Counted from the stretch's first letter, positions 1 to 52,257 are shown. The stretch: DNA of 64,000 nucleotides from the human T2T-CHM13v2.0 reference genome, Homo sapiens (GCF_009914755.1 NC_060929.1); one strand, 5' to 3'. Translations and numbers: made by a program. The notes: generated from the sequence alone by a model not told the origin.

Positions 1-124
1 TAAATGACAAGTTAATGGGTGCAGCACACCAACGTGGCACATGTATACATATGTAACAAACCTGCATGTTGTACACATGTACCCTAGAACTTAAAGTGTA
101 ATAAAATATATATATATAAAAAGA
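1..124 (+). mobile_element. L1PA 3' end with decayed A-rich tail (element continues left of the window)
   Basis: GGGTGCAGCACACCAAC..GGCACATGTATACATATGTAACAAACCTGCA..ATGTACCCTAGAACTTAAAGT.TAATAAAA is the L1PA 3' terminus; followed by an (AT)n/A tail. Confidence 0.93.
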
Positions 125-473
125 AATTATTGCATGGAAGATTGGCACTGAGGAAACCTGAGATGTGAGCTTTTGAGCTGATTAGATGCTTAAATTTGAG
201 CACCACTCCTATGACATTCTGTCCCCTCTCTATTTGTGTCAGTTTCTAATATAGGCATACAAGTTTCTAGCTGGAACTTTGGTATTTACACAAGTAACTG
301 CCTCTAACAGTGCATCATGGACAGAGATACACTGGTCTCCTGCTTGAACCATGTAATTCCTCTGGGTTCTCATTAAAGTTGCATAGGCATAATTACCTAC
401 AGTTTTTTCATGCTTGATTCTTTCCAACATGGCATCTATGACAATGAAACAACCAGTCCAGCCAACTCCTTCA
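124..473 (-). pseudogene. PTPRD: Processed pseudogene fragment of receptor tyrosine phosphatase delta (end of D1, linker, start of D2)
   Basis: Minus translation [74 protein letters not shown]; after a 1-nt deletion near 247 it continues [65 protein letters not shown] and LTQIE fit PTPRD better than PTPRF/PTPRS. Reads through the FK|RL position (188/189) with no intron. Confidence 0.92.
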
Positions 474-604
474 GATTCGGTAGGCTGTGCAAGCATGGCA
501 GCTGCATCTGCTTGTCTTCTGGTGTGGCCTCAGGAAGCTTTTATGCAAGGTGGAAGGTAAAGGGGGAGTGAGTGTGTCACATAGTGAGAAAGGAAGCAGA
601 AGAG
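474..604 (-). mobile_element. MST-family (ERVL-MaLR) LTR segment forming the 5' end of the PTPRD retrocopy
   Basis: Minus strand CTCTTCTGCTTCCTTTCTCACTATGTGACA...AGCTTCCTGAGGCC.CACCAGAAG..AAGCAGATGCAGCTGCCATGCTTGCACAGCCTACCGAATC resembles MST LTR from the CT-rich region to ...CAGCCTGCAGAACC. Confidence 0.8.
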
Positions 605-3594
605 CCTTTGCCAATTTTTAAATCAAGTTGCTGTTGGGATTGTTTGGTTGTTGAGTTTTAGTTCTCTGTATATTGATGATAGTAAGCCTTTATAAGTTAC
701 GTGATTTGAAAATATTTTCTCTTATCCTATGGTTTGCATTTATCACACTTGGCTGGCAATGTCTTGATTCACAAATTTATTATTAGTTTTTTTTTTAGAG
801 ATGGAAATCTCCCTATTTTGCCCAGGCTGGACTTGAACTACACTCAAGCGATCCTCCTGTCTTAGCCTTCTGGGTAATTGGGACTACAGATGCACACCAT
901 CGCATTCTAATTTTAAATCTTTATCGACTCCTGTGTGTCTATTTTTGTCTTTTTCTGTGCCTTTGGTGTCATATCCAAGAAAGCACTGCCAAATCAATGT
1001 CATGAAGCTTTTCCTTATGTTTCTTACAAGAGTGTTAGAGTTTTAGTTTACCTTTAGGTTTTTGGTATATTTAGAATTAATTTTTGTATAAAGGGTCCAA
1101 CTTAATTCTTTTACATGTGGATATCCAGTTTTCCCTGCACCATTTGTAGAAAAGATAGTCCTTTCCCCATTGAATGGTTTTGGTACCCTAGTCAAAAATC
1201 ATTTGACCATATATGTGAGGGTCTATTTCTGGGCACTCTATTCTATCCCACTGGTCATATGTCCTTCTTCATGCTAGTACTTCATGGTTTGATTATTGTA
1301 GCTTTGTAGCAAGTTTTCAAAATCAGGGAGTGTGTGTCTTTCAGGTTTGCCCTTTTTCAAGATTACTTTGACCATTCAGTGTCCCTTGAAATTCTATATA
1401 AATGTTAGGGTGGATTTTTTTATTTCTGAAAAGTACATCACTGGGATTTTGATAGATATTGCATTGAGTTTGTAGCTCACTTTGGGTAGTATTAACATCT
1501 TAATACTATTAATCCTTCCAATTCATGAATATAGAATGTCTTTCCAATTATTTATGTCCTCTTTAATTTCTTTAAGCAATATTTTGTAGTTTTTATTATA
1601 CAAGTTTTTAACCTTCTTGACTAATTCCTAAGTATTTTATTCTTTTTGATGCTATTGTAAATGCAATATTTTTTAGTTTCCTTTTCAGATTGTTCAGTTA
1701 GTCTATGAAAATGTAACTGATTTTTGTGTGCTACCTTTATAGCCTCCTGCTTTGTTGAATTTATTATTTCCACATTTTTTGTAGAATTGTTAAGGTTTTC
1801 AATATATATGATTGTGTCATCTGCAGAGATAATATTACCTCTTCCTTTTCCATTCATACGTGTTGCATTTCTTTCGCTTGACTCATTCATCTGGCTAGAA
1901 ATTCTAATATTATATTGAAGAGAAGTACCACAATTAGCAACCCTTGCCTTGTTCTTGAAATTAAAGCTTTTAATTTTTCATAATTGAGTATGATATTCAC
2001 TGCAGGTTTTCATATATGGCTTTTATTATGTTGAGTGGTTTCCCTCTATTCTTAGTTTGTTGAGTGTTTTATCATGAAAGTGTATTAAATTTTGTCAAAT
2101 GCTTCTCTTTGCATCAATTGGGATGATAATGTGTGCTTTTTTTAGTACTTTCTTTCTGTTAATGTGGTGCCTTGCATGGATTGGTTTTTGCATGTTGAAT
2201 CATCTTTCCCTTCCAGAAATAAACCCCATTTAGTCATAATGCATAATGCTTTTAATATGTCACTAAATTTAATTTGCTAGTGTTTTGTTTCAGATTGCTA
2301 TATCAATGTTTATTAGAAATTTTGGTCTGCAGTTTTTTTCTTATGATATTTTTGTCTGATTTTAGTATCAAGGTGATACTAGCCTCATAGAAGAATTAGA
2401 ACATTTTCTCTTCTATTCTATTTTTTGCATAATTTGAGAAAGATTTGTGTTAATCCTTTGAGTCTTCTTTAAATGTTGGTAGAATCCTCCAGTGAAGCCA
2501 TCAATCAGGTCCTGGGATTTTCTTTGTTGGGAGATGTCTGAGTACTGATTTAATCTCCTTACCAATAGTTATAAATCTACTTAGGTTTTCTATTTCTTCA
2601 AAATTTAGTCTTGGCAGGCTTAATGTTTTTTGCAATTTGTCCATTTCACCTAGATTAGCCAATTCGTTAGTGTACAATTTTGAATGTTTAATTTTAATTT
2701 CTCTGGAATCACTAGTAATGTTCTAATTCCTGAATTTAGTGATGAGTCTTCTGTCTTTTTTTTATAGCTGTTCTATTCGAAGTTTTGTCAATTATTTTGA
2801 TCATTTCAAATAATCAACTTTTGGTTTCCCTAAATTTCTCTATTGTTTTTCTATTCAGGGCTTCATTTTTCTCTGCTATAGTCTATTATTTCCTTTCTTC
2901 TGCTAGAGTTGGCTTTAAGTTGTTCTTTTTTTCTGGTTCCTTAAGTTGCTAAGTTAGGTAGTTGATTTCTTATCTTTGTTGATTTGAAACATGTTTATAG
3001 CTATATATTTTTCCAATTAGCACTACTTTCACTGTGTCCCATAAGCATTGGCATATTGTGTTTTTGTTTTAATTTATTTCTAATTATTTTCTAACTTTTG
3101 CTTGTTATTTTTTCTTTGATCCACTGGCTGATTTGGAGTTTGTTTTTTAAGTTCCACAAATGTGTTCATTTTCCCATTTTCTTTGTGTTATTGACTTCCA
3201 ACTTCATCTCATTGTGTACAGAGAAGATACTTTGTACAACATCTATATTTTATATCTATTAAGACTTAATTTGTGGCCTAACATGGTCGGCCTGGAAAAT
3301 GTCTCATCGGCACTTGAGAAGTATATGCATGTAGTTGTTGCTGAGTTAAGTGTTCTGTGCATGTCTGTTAGATCTAGTTGGTTTATTGTGTTAAGTCCTC
3401 TGTTTCTTTACATATATTCTGTCTTGTTTTTCTATGGATAATAGAGAATGAGATATTGAAGGCTCAAACTATTACTGAGTAACTTTTTATTTCTTACTTC
3501 AACTTTGTCAGGTTTTGCTTTATATATATTTATAGTCTGTTATTAGGTATGAAAATATTTATAATTTCCATATCTTTTTGCTATATTGAAACTT
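605..3594 (-). mobile_element. Old L1M (L1MA/L1MB-type) ORF2 relic
   Basis: Continuous antisense ORF2 homology from the endonuclease region (~3590) through the RT region (SADD remnant in ORF 1621..1890) to the C-terminal region; many stops and frameshifts. Confidence 0.88.
787..910 (-). mobile_element. FLAM/Alu monomer inserted in L1M
   Basis: poly-T then GAGATGG..CCCAGGCTGG..CTCAAGCGATCCTCCTGTCTTAGCC..GGGACTACAG. Confidence 0.85.
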
Positions 3595-8517: not shown

Positions 8518-9191
8518 TGATATGGTTAGGCTTTCATCTTGAACTGTAATCCCCATGTATCAAGGAAGGAACCTGATGGGAGGTGATTGGATCCTGGGGG
8601 TGGTTCCCCTATGCTGTTCTCTTGATAGTGAGTTCTCAGGAGAACTGATGGTTTTAAAAGTGGCTCTTCCTTCTTCACTCTGTCTCTCTCCTGCCACTAT
8701 TTAAGATGTGACTTGCTTCCCCTTAGCCTTCTGCCATGATTGGAAGTTTCCTGAAGCCTCCCAGCCATGCGGAACTGTGAGTCAATTAAACCTCTTGATG
8801 TGGTTTGGCTGTGTCCCCACCGAAATCTCATCTTGAATTCCCACGTGTTGTGGGAGGGACGCGGTGGGAGGGTCTTTCCTATGCTGTTCCTAAGCTCACA
8901 AAATCTGATGGCTTTATAAACAGGAGTTTGCCTGCACAAGCTCTTTTTTTCTTTCTGGCCGCTGTCCACGTAAGATGTGACTTGCTCCTCTTTGCCTTCT
9001 GCCATGATTGTGAAGCTTCCTAAGCCACGTGGAACTGTGAGTTCTCCATTAAACTTCTTTCCTTTGTAAAGTGCCTAGTCTGGGTTATGTCTTTATCAGC
9101 AGCGTGAAAACGGACAAATACACCTCTTTTCTTTATAAATTGCCCAGTCTCAGGTAGTATCTTTGTAGCAGTGTGAGAACAGACTAATACA
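8518..9191 (+). mobile_element. MSTA/THE1D-type solo LTR, interrupted by a THE1 LTR
   Basis: TGATATGG...GACTAATACA termini; 5-bp TSD GTGGG at 8513-8517 and 9192-9196. Confidence 0.9.
8796..9122 (+). mobile_element. THE1A/B solo LTR nested in the older LTR
   Basis: TGATGTGGTTTGGCTGTGTCCCCAC...ATCAGCAGCGTGAAAACGGACAAATACA; TSD CCTCT at 8791-8795 and 9123-9127. Confidence 0.92.
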
Positions 9192-46968: not shown

Positions 46969-47363
46969 TGATAAGATTTGCTCAAATCTCATGTCAAATT
47001 GTAATTGTCATGCCAAAATCTCATGTCAAATTATAACTCCCAGTGTTGGAGGAGGGGGTCTGCTGGGAGGTGATTGGATCATGGAGTGGATTTCTCCCTT
47101 GATGTTCTTGTGATAGTGAGTGAGTTCTCAAGAGATCTGGCTGTTTAAAAGCACTTTCCCATTCTCTCTATTCCTCCTGCTCCAGCCATGTAGGACGTGT
47201 CTACTTTCCCTTCCCCTTCCACCATGATTGTAAGTTTCCTGAGACCTCCACAGCTGTGATTCCTGTACAGCCTGTGGAACCATGTGTCAATTAAACCTCT
47301 TTTCCTTATAAATTACCCAGTTTCAGATATTCTGTTATAACGGTGTGAGAATAGACTAATACA
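46969..47363 (+). mobile_element. MSTA solo LTR
   Basis: TG...GACTAATACA termini; GGGAGGTGATTGGATCATGG, CTTCCACCATGATTGTAAGTTTCCTGAG; TSD GGTAC/TGTAC. Confidence 0.92.
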
Positions 47364-50300
47364 TGTACTGAGGGGAGGGTCTGTTCTAAACAAAGGAGGA
47401 AAACCAGAAGAATAGAGCATCAGAACTATTAGAGGAAATTGAAGAGGCGGAGGATCATGGTGGACGGGAGGCAGGATTAGATTGCAGCTCCGACTCGGAT
47501 GGACAGAGCAGCATGTGGAGGCTGGCATCATGAATTTTTGCTCCAGAATGACTGCAGGAATATATCATGATACCTGAGAGGACCCCCTGAGGGAAGCAGA
47601 TTGCTCCTGCAGGACCCGGGAGACACGCCAAATACTGTGAGTGTCCAAACTGTGGAAGTGGGAAAGGGAGATCATCCTCCCCTCAACACAAACCCACACT
47701 GGGGAAACTGAAGGTCTAGATTAAGAGAGATTCTGACCTTACCTGGGGCTGAGTCAACTTAGAAAGCTGAGTGCAATACAGAGGTAGAGGAAGCAGCGGG
47801 AAAAGCCTTGGGAGTTCGCTGGGTCCCCTAGCAACTCATTTTTGCCTGGTCTCACAGGGGTCCTCCAGGAAGGCAACTAGAGGTGCTGAGAAAAGGCCAC
47901 ACAGAGAAGGAAACCTCCAACTAAACTTTGTAACAATTTGAACTGATAGAGAAGCCTCCTGGCTAGAACTCAGGGGAGGGTGTGAATTCGGTGTGCAGAC
48001 GCCACAGGTGGAGAAAGAAGGAAAGCCATACTTGATTTTGCTGCTGGGAGGTGGGTAGCCTGGGGCAAGTTCTCAGTCCTGCTCGCCCACTGCCTGGAAA
48101 CAGACTCAATGCTGTTGCGGGGAGCATGGTGGAAGTGAGACCAGCCCTTTGGATTGCAAGGGAGCTAAGTGAGGCCGACTTTCCCCCAGTTCCCTGACAA
48201 CCTGCATAATGGAGACAGTCATAATCCTCCTAGGAATATAACTCCATTGACCTGGGAACCTCACCCCCAACCCCCACAGCAGTCATAGCAAGACCTGCCC
48301 AAGGGGAGTCTGAGCTCAGACACACCTAGCCCTGCCCCCAGCTAATGGTCCTTCGCTACCCATCCTGGTAACAAAGGGTATATACTCTTGCAAGTTGTAG
48401 GGCCCTGCCCACCACCTGTTCCTCCTTTTATAACCACAGCTGATGCTCTCTGGAGAGCCCCACTTCCTGGCAGGAGGCCAACCAGCACAAAAATCATGCA
48501 TTAAACCACCAAAGGTAAGAACCTTCACAGAGTCCATTTCACTCCCCTGCCACCTCCACCAGAACAAGTGCTGGTATCCACGGCTGAGAGTCCCACTGAT
48601 GGTTCACATCACAAGACTCTGGGTAGAAAACCCCCAATACCAGCCTGGACCTTGATAGACTTGCTGGGTGGCTAGATCCAGAACAGAGATAACAGTCACT
48701 TCAGCTCAGCTCTCAGGAAGCCACATCCATAGGAAAAGGGTGAGAGTACTATATCAAGGGAACACCCTGTGGGGCAAAAGAATCTGAACAACAGCCTTCA
48801 TCCCTAGACTTTCCCTCTGACAGAGCCTACGCAAATGAGAAGAAACCGGAAAACCTATTCCGGTAATATGACTAAACAAGGTTCTTTAACTCCCCTACCC
48901 GCCCAAAAAATAATCACACTATCTCACCAGCAATGGAGCCAAACAGAAAAGAAATCCCTGATTTACCTGAAAAAGTATTCAGGAGGTCAATTATTAAGCT
49001 AATTAGCGAGGCACCAGAGGAAGGTGAAGCCCAAAGTAAGGAAATACAAAAAAAAAAAAAAAAAAAATGACAGAAGTGAAGGGAGAAATATTCAAGGAAA
49101 GAGATAGCATAAAATATAAATCAAAACTTCAGGAAACAATGGACACACTTATAAAAATGCAAAATGCTCTGGAAAGTCTCAGCAATAGAAGTGAACAAGT
49201 AGAAGAAAGAAATTCGGTCTTGAACACAAGGTCTTTGAATTAGCCCAATCCAACAAAGACAAAAAAGAATAAGAAATGTGAACCAAGCCTCAAAGAAGTC
49301 TGGGATTATGTTAAATGACCAAACCTAAAAATAATCAGTGCTCTTGAGGAAGAAGAGAAATCTAAAAGTTTGGAAAACATATTTGGGGGAATAATCTAAG
49401 AAACCTTCCCTGGCCTTGCTAGAGATCTAGACATTCAAATACAAGAAGCATGAAGAACACCTGGGAAATTCATCGTAAAACTATCATCGCCTAGGGAGAT
49501 TGTCATCAGGTTATCTAAAGTTAAGATAAAGGAAAGAATCTTAAGATCTATGAGACAAAAGCAGCAGGTAACCTCTAAAGGAAAACCTATCAGATTAACA
49601 GCAGATTTCTCAGCAGAAACCCTACAAGCTAGAAGCGATTGGGGCCCTCTCTTCAGCCTCCTCAAACAAAACAGTTATCAGCCAAGAATTTTGTATCCAG
49701 CAAAAAAATAAGCCTCATATATGAAGGAAAGATACAGTCTTTTTCAGACAAACAAATGCTGAGAGAATTTGCCACTACCAAGCCACCAAAACAAGAACTG
49801 CTAAAAGGAGCTCTAAATCTTGAAAGAAATCCTGAAAACACATCAAAACAGAACCTCTTTAAAGCATAAATCTCATAGGACCTATAAAACAAAAATACAA
49901 TTTAAAAAACAAAAAAACCCCCAAAAATCCAAGGTATACAGGTAACAAATAGCATGCATGGAATGGTACCTCGTATCTCAATACTAACATTAAATGTGAA
50001 TGGCCTAAATGCTCCATTTAAAAGATACTGAATTACAGAATAGATAAGAACTCACCAACCAACCATCTGCTGCCTTCAGGAGACTCACCTAACACAAAAA
50101 TACTCACACAAACTTAAAGGGGTGGAAAAAAGGCATTTCATGCAAATGGACACCAAAAGTGAGCAGGGGTAGCTATTCTTATATCAGACAAAACAAATTT
50201 TAAAGCAACAACAGTTAAAAAAGACAAAGAGAGACATTATATAATGATAAAAGGCCTTGTCCAACTAGGAAAATAGCACAGTCCTAAACATATATGCACC

Positions 50301-51629: not shown

Positions 51630-52257
51630 TGTAGCTCACTGCAGCCTCGAACTCCTGGGTTCACACAGTCCTCCCACCACAGCCTCCCAAAACACTGGGA
51701 TTGCAAGCATGAGCTGCCATGCCTGGCCAGCCTATTTTTGGCTGGACACCAGTGGGCCAAAAGCAGTGGGGTGCTGTCTGGGGAGCTCTGAGAATGCACT
51801 TGTGTGACAGGCTGAGCCTAAAGACTGTTATCCAGTGTCTGCCCTCCAGTGTGTAGCATGCTGCGCACTGTCGCTCCATGTTGCTGCCCACGTGTCCCCA
51901 CCAGGCAGGTGTTGGTGGTTATCTGGACACTGAAGGGTCAGACCTGGAAAACTGGGACCAAAAGATGAGGTCTCCATAATTTAAGGTGCTGTTAAGAGTT
52001 CGTTCAGGTCATAGGACTTCTTTCATCTCACCCTTCCTTGGAATCCTCCTGCTTTCATCTGGGGATCTTTTAGAATGAAACCACTTGTTATTGTGGAGGG
52101 CAAGGTGTCCTAATGCCCTCCTCTTAGAACCTGAGCCAGTCGAGGCAGCTGCATCTGTCTACATGTTTTATCTGCAGAGATAAATAGTTATTGAGCTTTT
52201 TTTGTTTGGCCTTGTTTTATTATACCATAAAAAAGATTTTCCTCTTAAAAAAAAAAA
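51630..52257 (+). pseudogene. 5'-truncated retrocopy of an unidentified mRNA 3'UTR inserted in L1PB ORF2
   Basis: Non-L1 sequence ending in an A11 tail; TSD AGAAATGTGAT at 51619-51629 and 52257-52267; first ~100 nt are an antisense FLAM/Alu. Confidence 0.82.

What the first reader, a model, noticed from the sequence alone, without database searches (positions are those of the whole stretch)
124..604. Fossil retrocopy of an LTR-initiated, spliced MST-PTPRD chimeric transcript
Seen: on the minus strand an MST LTR segment ends at ...CAGCCTACCGAATC (474) and runs directly into TGAAGGAGTTGGC (473), where PTPRD homology begins. Recalled knowledge: the MST consensus reads ...CAGCCTGCAGAACC|GTGAG, the MaLR splice donor. 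The PTPRD exon after the D1 catalytic Cys starts T-GCG-GGA-GTT-GGC and ends at ..TTT-AAG, about 286 nt. Here 473 to 189 is 285 nt with one 1-nt deletion, and the sequence then enters the next exon without an intron. The LTR piece starts (~604) in the CT-rich stretch just downstream of the MaLR TATA, where LTR transcription would start. Inference: both junctions are splice junctions, so this is an L1-made copy of a 5'-complete mRNA started from an intronic MST promoter in PTPRD. MaLR LTRs are known oocyte/early-embryo promoters, which fits germline fixation.
Basis: partly seen in the sequence, partly recalled or inferred. Interest (0 to 1): 0.88.

Follow-up and report, generated by a model that had tools for sequence, protein, structure and literature searches.

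The report
Retrocopy of an LTR-started PTPRD transcript
This is the head of an old, dead, intronless copy of part of the PTPRD phosphatase gene whose first 131 bases come from a retroviral LTR joined exactly splice site to splice site, so it preserves an ancient LTR-driven PTPRD messenger RNA, although no matching LTR was found in the part of the human PTPRD gene that could be searched.

Summary
On the minus strand, window 473..189 is the 286-nt PTPRD exon that starts TGCGGGAGTTGGC. It is 285 nt here, 87.4% identical, with one gap. Window 188..124 continues into the next exon with the intron removed exactly.

Window 604..474 is a MaLR LTR piece. It ends exactly where 8 genomic and 2 in-window copies carry the LTR's GT(G/A)AG donor or its AT-decayed form. 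It starts 18-32 nt after their TATA-like box. A RefSeq lncRNA in this same window (LINC02147) uses that same donor position in another MaLR copy.

New here: beyond a later L1 insertion the copy runs on through five more PTPRD exons and the 3'UTR to the gene's ATTAAA poly(A) site. The whole unit, LTR piece included, lies between target-site duplications inside one split old L1. So the LTR piece was part of the retrotransposed RNA.

None was found in chr9:8308001-8518000.

Verdict: a real processed pseudogene of a spliced, most likely LTR-initiated, chimeric mRNA. The mechanisms are standard, the example is good, and the source LTR is missing.

The parts
605..624 (-). Upstream target-site duplication of the retrocopy, within an old L1 ORF2 fragment on the minus strand (reads about GATTTAAAAATTGGCAAAGG). 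Its partner lies outside the window at about -4325..-4342.
   Evidence: both flanks printed; the two flanks abut at positions 973/972 of an L1 used as a ruler. Boundaries are good to about 3 nt because the duplicates have diverged.
474..604 (-). MaLR (MST-like) LTR segment running from the expected transcription start to the LTR splice donor. It is the first exon of the retrocopied chimeric RNA. It holds an ATG at 496..494 in frame with the PTPRD reading frame.
   Evidence: 80-85% identity to the eight best-matching genomic copies (L003-L010), down to 78% in the rest of the table; 927 candidates, 40 scored; alignment; the only profile hit in 23 kb. ORF 239..529 reads ...[18 protein letters not shown]...
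189..473 (-). Copy of the 286-nt PTPRD exon (chr9:8348534..8348249) that encodes [16 protein letters not shown]...ELEFK. It is 285 nt here; a 1-nt deletion shifts the frame after ...NLYAYIR.
   Evidence: PDB matches to LAR-family D1 domains, best E 1.6e-39.
124..188 (-). First part of the next PTPRD exon (chr9:8347826..), joined without the intron. It is cut by a later L1 insertion. The bases 123..139 are also that L1's target-site duplication.
   Evidence: Best PDB match is PTPRD itself: 6kip_A, E 2.6e-13.
1..122 (+). 3' end and A/T-rich tail of a younger L1 that inserted into the retrocopy. The L1 runs from window -1680 to about 122. Its 17-nt duplication GAAATTATTGCATGGAA lies at -1697..-1681 and 123..139.

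Best explanation
Tens of millions of years ago an RNA was made whose first exon was the stretch of a MaLR (MST-like) LTR from its own transcription start to its own splice donor. That exon was spliced to the normal acceptor of the PTPRD exon that follows the D1 catalytic cysteine. The RNA then carried all downstream PTPRD exons to the normal poly(A) site.

L1 machinery reverse-transcribed this mRNA and inserted it into an older L1 on chromosome 5, creating a target-site duplication of about 17-19 nt. The copy had no promoter and decayed. A younger L1 (window -1680..122) and an Alu (-3594..-3923) later inserted into it. RefSeq's pseudogene LOC100129526 (-4304..-1681) is the distal part of the same retrocopy. 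Window 124..604 is its unannotated head.

Shown: the exon junctions, the end of the LTR at its donor, the poly(A) end, the duplications that enclose the LTR piece, and a single parent gene.

Inferred: that transcription began in the LTR rather than upstream of it, and that the LTR lay in cis in the PTPRD intron and has since been lost or was never fixed.
For: - Exon A starts at the exact first base after the parental AG acceptor, and the A/B intron is removed exactly.
- Five further exons and the 3'UTR follow colinearly with the parental exons. The segment ends abut to within 3-11 nt of each other. Identity is 83.7-88.6% in seven of the eight aligned segments; the exon at 8346895-8347027 was not in that table and aligned in two pieces of 77.8% and 93.3%.
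- The copy ends at ...TTTACCACA after ATTAAA, as in the parent, and is followed by an A-rich tail.
- The flanks are one old L1 split at a single point, with a duplicated ...TTAAAA.TGGGCAAA.. stretch on both sides. The LTR piece is therefore inside the inserted unit.
- The LTR profile matches only 604..474. No U3 sequence upstream of the TATA box and no LTR tail downstream of the donor are present.
- All 10 compared copies have GT or AT at the position after 474: 6 GT and 4 AT.
- RefSeq LINC02147 exon 1 ends at window 8776, exactly at GGAACT|GTGAGT of another MaLR copy (together with the hub's gene table). This shows the position works as a donor in human transcripts.
- Passages in PMC5538554 and PMC13408016 state that MaLR LTRs supply promoter, start site and a conserved donor near the LTR 3' end.
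- The piece starts 26-32 nt after the TATA-like box in 5 of 6 copies, and 18 nt in the sixth. This is the usual TATA-to-start spacing, which is textbook knowledge.
- No other PTPRD retrocopy exists that could have served as an intermediate. All 8 of 8 candidates were scored: the copy itself, 4 chr9 exons and 3 paralogue exons.
Against: - No sense-oriented LTR of this family was found in the 33.9-kb intron upstream of exon A, or anywhere in chr9:8308001-8518000, by blastn with the piece, blastn with 8 copies, or the nhmmer profile. The cis source that the model needs is absent from this human genome. The rest of the gene, about 2 Mb by my recollection of its extent, could not be scanned.
- The first three bases after the junction (TGA) fit the LTR's GTGAG with one base deleted about as well as the exon's TGC. 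PTPRD cDNA also reads G|TG across its own junction. A 3-nt microhomology join is therefore not strictly excluded.
- The 5' end is fixed only to about 3 nt, and no direct start-site data for this LTR family were seen.
- No RNA evidence was available.
- In one search one PDB row (2nv5_A) aligns from query residue 9, upstream of the junction. The alignment was not printed. The DNA shows no similarity there (1 of 14 bases, my own count).
Confidence: 0.78

Rival explanations
1. The RNA was spliced as described but did not start in the LTR. A longer transcript from an upstream promoter used the LTR stretch as part of an exon, and the retrocopy is simply 5'-truncated at about 604.
For: L1-made copies are often 5'-truncated (general knowledge). 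The 5' end is known only to about 3 nt. No start-site data were seen.
Against: The truncation would have to fall by chance 26-32 nt after the TATA-like box, as it does in 5 of 6 copies. MaLR LTRs carry no splice acceptor (passage in PMC5538554), so an internal exon starting inside the LTR is not expected.
Confidence: 0.1
2. Trans-splicing. An LTR-initiated RNA from another locus donated its first exon to the acceptor of PTPRD exon A on a separate pre-mRNA, and the product was retrocopied.
For: It explains both exact splice-site junctions and also the absence of a sense LTR in the 210 kb of PTPRD scanned.
Against: Trans-splicing is rare in mammals (general knowledge). No candidate donor locus stands out: the best genomic match, on C23 at 39035173, is only 85% identical, within the spread of the family. 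Loss of a neutral or harmful intronic LTR over this time span is an ordinary event.
Confidence: 0.07
3. The chimera formed without splicing, either by an L1 reverse-transcriptase template switch or by RNA ligation between a PTPRD mRNA fragment and an LTR-containing RNA, as in U6/L1 chimeric retrocopies.
For: Such chimeras exist and also lie within one pair of target-site duplications. I saw PMC6789731 only as a search listing and abstract start. A 3-nt GTG microhomology exists between the LTR donor and the PTPRD cDNA junction.
Against: One breakpoint would have to fall at the exact first base of an exon and the other at the LTR donor, both in sense orientation. The microhomology version also needs an extra 1-nt deletion, whereas the spliced version needs no indel.
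Confidence: 0.04
4. The LTR fragment was already at the chr5 site, or inserted there independently, and merely abuts a 5'-truncated PTPRD pseudogene.
For: None beyond adjacency.
Against: The piece lies inside the retrocopy's target-site duplications, within one split L1. It lacks both LTR ends, and no other LTR sequence is present in 23 kb. It ends at the donor, and the gene part begins at an exon start.
Confidence: 0.01

Closest known systems
Processed pseudogenes as fossils of old transcript isoforms
   Same: It is an intronless L1-made copy ending at the parental poly(A) site, flanked by target-site duplications. It records an isoform, here an alternative first exon, that differs from the canonical mRNA.
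   Different: The recorded first exon is the start-to-donor segment of an LTR, and its source is not in the searched part of the parent gene today. The 'genomic fossils' study of processed pseudogenes as a record of old transcripts is my recollection and was not read here. It was cited in papers listed.
MaLR LTR-initiated chimeric transcripts (LITs) of oocytes and early embryos, e.g. MT-driven Dicer(O) in mouse and THE1/MLT1-driven transcripts in human
   Same: It has the same architecture: start site and donor both inside the LTR, spliced to a normal acceptor of a host-gene exon, giving a 5'-truncated host message (passages in PMC5538554, PMC6102241 and PMC13408016).
   Different: Known LITs are seen as RNA from an LTR that is present in the genome. 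Here only a DNA copy of the RNA survives, and the expression site is unknown.
LINC02147 exon 1 in this same window (8729-8776, plus strand)
   Same: It is a MaLR-derived first exon ending at the same conserved donor position (GGAACT|GTGAGT) (and the hub table).
   Different: It is a live annotated lncRNA at its own locus, not a retrocopy, and it comes from another MaLR subfamily copy.
Retrocopies of fused or read-through transcripts (PIPSL-type) and U6/L1 template-switch or ligation chimeras
   Same: Two unrelated sequences lie inside one retroposed unit.
   Different: In PIPSL-type copies both parts are genes joined by intergenic splicing (my recollection). In U6-type chimeras the junction is not at splice sites (PMC6789731, listing only).

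Membership tests
L1-mediated processed pseudogene (retrocopy) | Introns removed exactly at parental exon junctions | tested here: met
   The A/B junction was checked base by base. Five further junctions were inferred from colinear BLAST segments whose ends abut to within 3-11 nt.
L1-mediated processed pseudogene (retrocopy) | Ends at the parental polyadenylation site with an A-rich tail | tested here: met
   ATTAAA ... TTTACCACA is followed by GAAAATGAAAAATAGTAAAAATTAAAA. The parental sequence diverges at the same point.
L1-mediated processed pseudogene (retrocopy) | Target-site duplications flank the whole unit | tested here: met
   A diverged duplicate of about 17-19 nt of an L1 ORF2 stretch lies on both sides. 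The flanks abut at ruler positions 973/972.
L1-mediated processed pseudogene (retrocopy) | One intron-containing parent gene elsewhere | tested here: met
   The chr9 exons are 83-89% identical. The only other matches are paralogue exons on C19 and C1 at 74-76%.
MaLR LTR-initiated chimeric transcript | First exon ends at the LTR's conserved splice donor | tested here: met
   10 of 10 copies have GT or its AT-decayed form right after the position of 474. Donor use is shown by RefSeq LINC02147.
MaLR LTR-initiated chimeric transcript | Donor joined to a true acceptor of a host-gene exon | tested here: met
   The parental intron ends ...CTCATAG and the exon starts TGCGGGAGTTGGC. The copy's homology starts at that T.
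MaLR LTR-initiated chimeric transcript | First exon begins at the LTR's own transcription start | tested here: inconclusive
   The start lies 26-32 nt after the TATA-like box in 5 of 6 copies, and 18 nt in one. This is consistent, but no start-site data were available and the 5' end is known only to about 3 nt.
MaLR LTR-initiated chimeric transcript | Sense-oriented LTR present upstream of the acceptor exon in the host gene | tested here: not met
   There is no sense copy in chr9:8308001-8518000 of this human genome; three antisense copies only. Other species and the remaining upstream part of the gene were not tested.
MaLR LTR-initiated chimeric transcript | RNA evidence of the junction | not testable with these tools
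   No expression data were available.
MST subfamily of MaLR LTRs | Classification against a curated repeat library (Dfam/RepeatMasker) | not testable with these tools
No repeat library was held. It is shown to belong to a large dispersed family (927 candidates, 40 scored, 78-85% identity) related to the THE1-like copies in the window.
Template-switch or ligation chimeric retrocopy (U6/L1 type) | Junction unrelated to splice sites, with the 5' partner ending at its RNA 3' terminus | tested here: not met
   The junction lies at a donor on one side and an exon start on the other.

The most novel reading that the evidence does not exclude
The retrocopy is the only surviving record of a sense-oriented MaLR LTR that once sat in the 34-kb PTPRD intron, drove a truncated PTPRD message in the germline, and was then deleted or never reached fixation. 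In that reading the pseudogene is a 'ghost' of a lost and probably harmful LTR insertion allele. The LTR-borne ATG at 496..494 is in frame with PTPRD. The message could therefore have encoded a protein lacking the D1 catalytic cysteine but keeping the whole D2 domain.
Probability: 0.5. Interest if true: 0.55.

Novelty: new member of a known kind. Interest (0 to 1): 0.45.

Why it matters
The finding shows that a processed pseudogene can preserve, base for base, an LTR-initiated host-gene transcript from an early primate or pre-primate germline. The rough age comes from K2P distances of 0.13-0.19 to the parent and an assumed neutral rate; it was not dated against other species.

That is direct DNA evidence that a MaLR promoter and donor were used in cells that contribute to the germline at that time. 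Here the LTR itself is not visible in the searched part of the parent gene.

The example suggests a simple genome-wide screen: look for retrocopies whose 5' ends are LTR segments that stop at the LTR donor. Such a screen would recover ancient LTR-driven transcripts and lost LTR insertions.

It also corrects the annotation. LOC100129526 is about 480 nt longer at its 5' end than annotated, once the interposed L1 is set aside, and it begins with an LTR exon.

Nothing suggests a present function.

Tried and rejected
- The in-window self-search gave only weak hits, at 47203-47253, 8711-8764 and 51704-51734. The first two proved to be MaLR copies and were useful. The third is Alu-like and was dropped.
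- Looking for the source LTR by best identity across the genome does not work. The best hit (C23:39035173, 85%) is not in PTPRD, and a true source is expected to be no closer than other family members. Only 40 of 927 candidates were scored.
- The antisense MaLR inside the intron (8361550-8361921, plus strand, 65.9% identity to the piece) was considered as a source and rejected on orientation and identity.
- A two-step origin through an intermediate PTPRD retrocopy next to an LTR was rejected, because no other PTPRD retrocopy exists.
- My recollection that D6Ertd527e was a retrocopied LTR-Spin1 chimera was wrong. The passages read say it arose de novo from an MTD LTR exon plus a CAG repeat expansion.
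- Searches for a precedent, for LOC100129526 (0 papers) and for a PTPRD pseudogene (1 unrelated paper) found nothing on this locus or on retrocopies of LTR-initiated transcripts. I judged these from titles and abstract starts only, so this is not proof of absence from print.

Full report
**What is in the sequence.** Read on the minus strand, window 604..474 is followed without a break by 473..124. The frame open over 529..239 translates to ...[36 protein letters not shown]....

Against the Protein Data Bank this frame matches D1 domains of LAR-family receptor phosphatases: 35 distinct sequences at E up to 0.001, the best being 1lar_A at 1.6e-39. In all 4 printed alignments the match begins at the residue encoded by 475..473. 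One row, 2nv5_A, lists a stretch that starts at query residue 9. That alignment was not printed, and the DNA comparison below shows no homology there.

The next frame, 245..84, matches PTPRD itself best: 6kip_A at E 2.6e-13, with 6 sequences at E up to 1.

**The parent gene and the two junctions.** The window's own genome (G000, 24 contigs) could be searched. The finding matched C9:8348249-8348530 (88%) and C9:8347760-8347826 (85%), both on the minus strand. I fetched the region and printed the junctions.

- The parental intron ends ...TTTTCCTCATAG and the exon starts TGCGGGAGTTGGCCGGACTGG.
- The copy reads ...CAGCCTACCGAATC then TGAAGGAGTTGGCTGGACTGG.
- The upstream parental exon, found by a motif scan, ends ...GTGCACTGCAG|GTAAGA. 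It encodes ...VVHC plus two bases of the serine codon.
- Its last 14 bases agree with the copy's 487..474 at 1 of 14 positions, by my own count.
- The exon is 286 nt. The copy is 285 nt, 87.4% identical, with one gap.
- At its end, parental ...GAATTTAAG|GTATGG and ...CAACAG|CGTCTAGCCAGC correspond to the copy's CAAATTTAAGCATCTAATCAGC. An intron of about 420 nt has therefore been removed exactly.

I call the locus PTPRD for three reasons. The chr9 exon translates to ...KLTQIETGENVTGMELEFK, identical to the PTPRD chain printed. The only other genomic matches are weaker exons on C19 and C1, which are PTPRS and PTPRF by my recollection of their chromosomes. The gene's position on chr9 is also recalled.

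**The copy is much longer than the finding.** At window 123 the copy is cut by the 3' end of an L1 on the plus strand. That L1 runs from -1680 to about 122 and has a 17-nt duplication, GAAATTATTGCATGGAA, at -1697..-1681 and 123..139. Beyond it the copy resumes in the same exon. It continues colinearly through the exons at chr9 8346895-8347027, 8345477-8345603, 8338141-8338295 and 8326380-8326514, then through the last exon with its 3'UTR (8324487-8322790). An Alu interrupts it at -3594..-3923.

Identity is 83.7-88.6% and K2P distance 0.13-0.19 in seven of the eight aligned segments. The exon at 8346895-8347027 was not aligned there; it matched in two pieces of 77.8% and 93.3%.

The copy ends at window -4304 after ATTAAA ... 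TTTACCACA, where the parental sequence goes on differently. An A-rich tail follows. The span -4304..-1681 is exactly RefSeq's pseudogene LOC100129526 in the hub's table. Window 124..604 is therefore the unannotated head of that pseudogene.

**Target-site duplication.** Upstream of 604 the minus strand is an old L1 ORF2 fragment that ends ...GATTTAAAAATTGGCAAAGG. After the A-rich tail the sequence reads ...ATTAAAATGGGCAAAAAATTTTAATATAC... and continues as L1 ORF2.

Using the younger L1 as a ruler, the 5' flank aligns up to position 973 and the 3' flank aligns from position 972. The two flanks are therefore one L1 split at a single point, with about 17-19 nt present on both sides. The duplicates have diverged, so the 5' end of the insert is fixed at 604 to within about 3 nt. 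The LTR piece lies inside this unit. It was therefore part of the inserted cDNA and not a resident or independent LTR.

**The LTR piece.** It matches a large dispersed family. There were 927 first-look candidates, of which 40 were scored. The LTR matches among them were 78-85% identical, with two shorter partial matches at 86% and 89%, and none ran past window 472.

I aligned it with the 8 best genomic copies and 2 MaLR copies from the window.

- After the position of 474, six copies read GTGAGCC, GTAAGCC or GTGAGTC.
- The other four read ATGAGCC, ATAAGCC, ATACGCC or ATGTGTC. This is the change expected from decay of the CpG that spans the site.

A profile of the 8 copies hits the 23 kb around the finding only once, at window 604..474, profile positions 313-443, E 9.7e-38. 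No LTR sequence upstream of the TATA-like box or downstream of the donor is present.

The piece starts in the CT-rich stretch, at the following distances after the first T of the TATA-like box in the 6 of 8 copies where the box is recognisable:

| Copy | Distance (nt) |
|---|---|
| L003 | 29 |
| L005 | 26 |
| L008 | 26 |
| L009 | 18 |
| L010 | 28 |
| L006 | 32 |

That is where RNA polymerase II usually starts, by textbook knowledge.

The multiple alignment also lined up the L1-derived ...TTTAAAAATTGGCA with the LTR's TATA region. I take this as coincidence, because the same stretch recurs in the 3' flank as part of the L1.

**Independent support that this position is a real donor.** In the same window, a MaLR copy at about 8520-8796 carries ...GCGGAACT|GTGAGTCAATTAAACC. 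RefSeq's LINC02147 exon 1 (8729-8776 in the hub table) ends exactly at that bar.

Three papers, of which I read passages only, bear on this.

- PMC5538554 says MaLR LTRs carry promoter, start site, similar donors near the LTR 3' end, sometimes an AUG, and no acceptor.
- PMC13408016 says MaLR-driven transcripts use both initiation and a donor inside the LTR.
- PMC6102241 says human oocytes hold many LTR-initiated transcripts, with THE1 and MLT1 among the MaLRs. MST is not mentioned there (0 occurrences).

**The failed prediction.** The model needs a sense-oriented LTR upstream of exon A, most simply in the intron 8348535-8382475. I searched chr9:8308001-8418000 three ways.

- Sensitive blastn with the piece gave 4 hits. 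Only one was significant: 8361755-8361869 on the plus strand, 65.9% identity.
- Blastn with the 8 copies found LTR-length matches on the plus strand only, at about 8309138, 8361553 and 8405306. The few short minus-strand rows involve only the outer ends of two queries, which I took for repeat flanks and did not check.
- The nhmmer profile found plus-strand hits at 8309128, 8361550 and 8405066-8405451. The only minus-strand row had E 3.2.

I then searched 8418001-8468000 and 8468001-8518000 and found nothing on either strand. PTPRD is on the minus strand, so the three copies found are antisense to it.

Other species were not available.

Best identity cannot pick out a source either. Both the copy and a neutral source would have drifted, so a true source need not be closer than other family members.

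**Weighing the explanations.** Splicing explains the two exact junctions with no indel. A template switch or an RNA ligation would need both breakpoints to fall on splice sites by chance. A GTG microhomology between the LTR donor and the PTPRD cDNA junction exists, but using it requires an extra 1-nt deletion. A resident LTR is excluded by the duplications. An intermediate retrocopy is excluded because none exists (8 of 8 candidates scored).

What stays open is where the LTR was. It may have been in cis and since lost or never fixed, which I favour. It may lie far upstream, with many exons skipped. Or it may have been in trans. It also stays open whether transcription truly began in the LTR. 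The TATA spacing favours that, but it is not shown.

**Coding aspect (observation only).** The ATG at 496..494 inside the LTR piece is in frame with the PTPRD frame across the junction. A one-in-three chance would give this. If it was used, the product would have lacked the D1 catalytic cysteine and kept D2. The copy itself is dead: a 1-nt deletion is followed by stop codons after ...NLYAYIR.

**Comparison and novelty.** The element is a member of the processed pseudogenes; all four defining features that I tested are met. It works like a MaLR LTR-initiated chimeric transcript. The donor and acceptor features are met and the start is consistent, but the feature 'LTR present in the host gene' is not met in this genome.

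Four literature searches listed no paper that describes a retrocopy of an LTR-initiated host-gene transcript. Two searches found nothing on this pseudogene. I judged those lists by titles and abstract starts only, and subscription journals are not covered.

The mechanisms are all standard. I therefore rate it a new member of a known kind and of moderate interest, mainly as a clean worked example and as a lead for a systematic screen.

Noticed in passing
window 8520-8796 and 8797-9100 (+): Two adjacent THE1-like MaLR LTR copies, the second apparently inserted into or abutting the tail of the first. RefSeq LINC02147 exon 1 (8729-8776) lies wholly in the first copy and ends at the conserved MaLR donor GGAACT|GTGAGT. 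This lncRNA is therefore LTR-derived at its 5' end.
   Followed up: partly
window ~47000-47365 (+): A near-complete MaLR LTR of a related family. It has a TATA-like box (GTTTAAAAGC), a decayed donor (GGAACC|ATGTGT) and an AATTAAA signal. I used it as an in-window comparison copy.
   Followed up: partly
window 496-494 (-): The LTR-borne ATG (GCCATGC) is in frame with the PTPRD reading frame across the LTR-exon junction. MaLR LTRs are reported to supply a start codon in some co-opted transcripts (passage in PMC5538554).
   Followed up: partly
outside the window: -4304..-1681 (chr5:118229697-118232320): RefSeq pseudogene LOC100129526 is the distal part of the same retrocopy. Its annotation stops at the L1 insertion and omits window 124-604. 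An Alu sits in its 3'UTR part at -3594..-3923.
   Followed up: yes
window ~773-905 (-): A short Alu-like monomer with an A-rich tail, inserted in the old L1 fragment that forms the 5' flank of the retrocopy. It overlaps the stretch masked at 773-984.
   Followed up: no
L014-L015: chr9:8361550-8361921 (+): The 34-kb PTPRD intron holds one MaLR LTR, antisense to the gene. All three MaLR copies found in the 210 kb scanned are antisense. This fits the known bias against sense-oriented LTRs in introns (general knowledge).
   Followed up: partly
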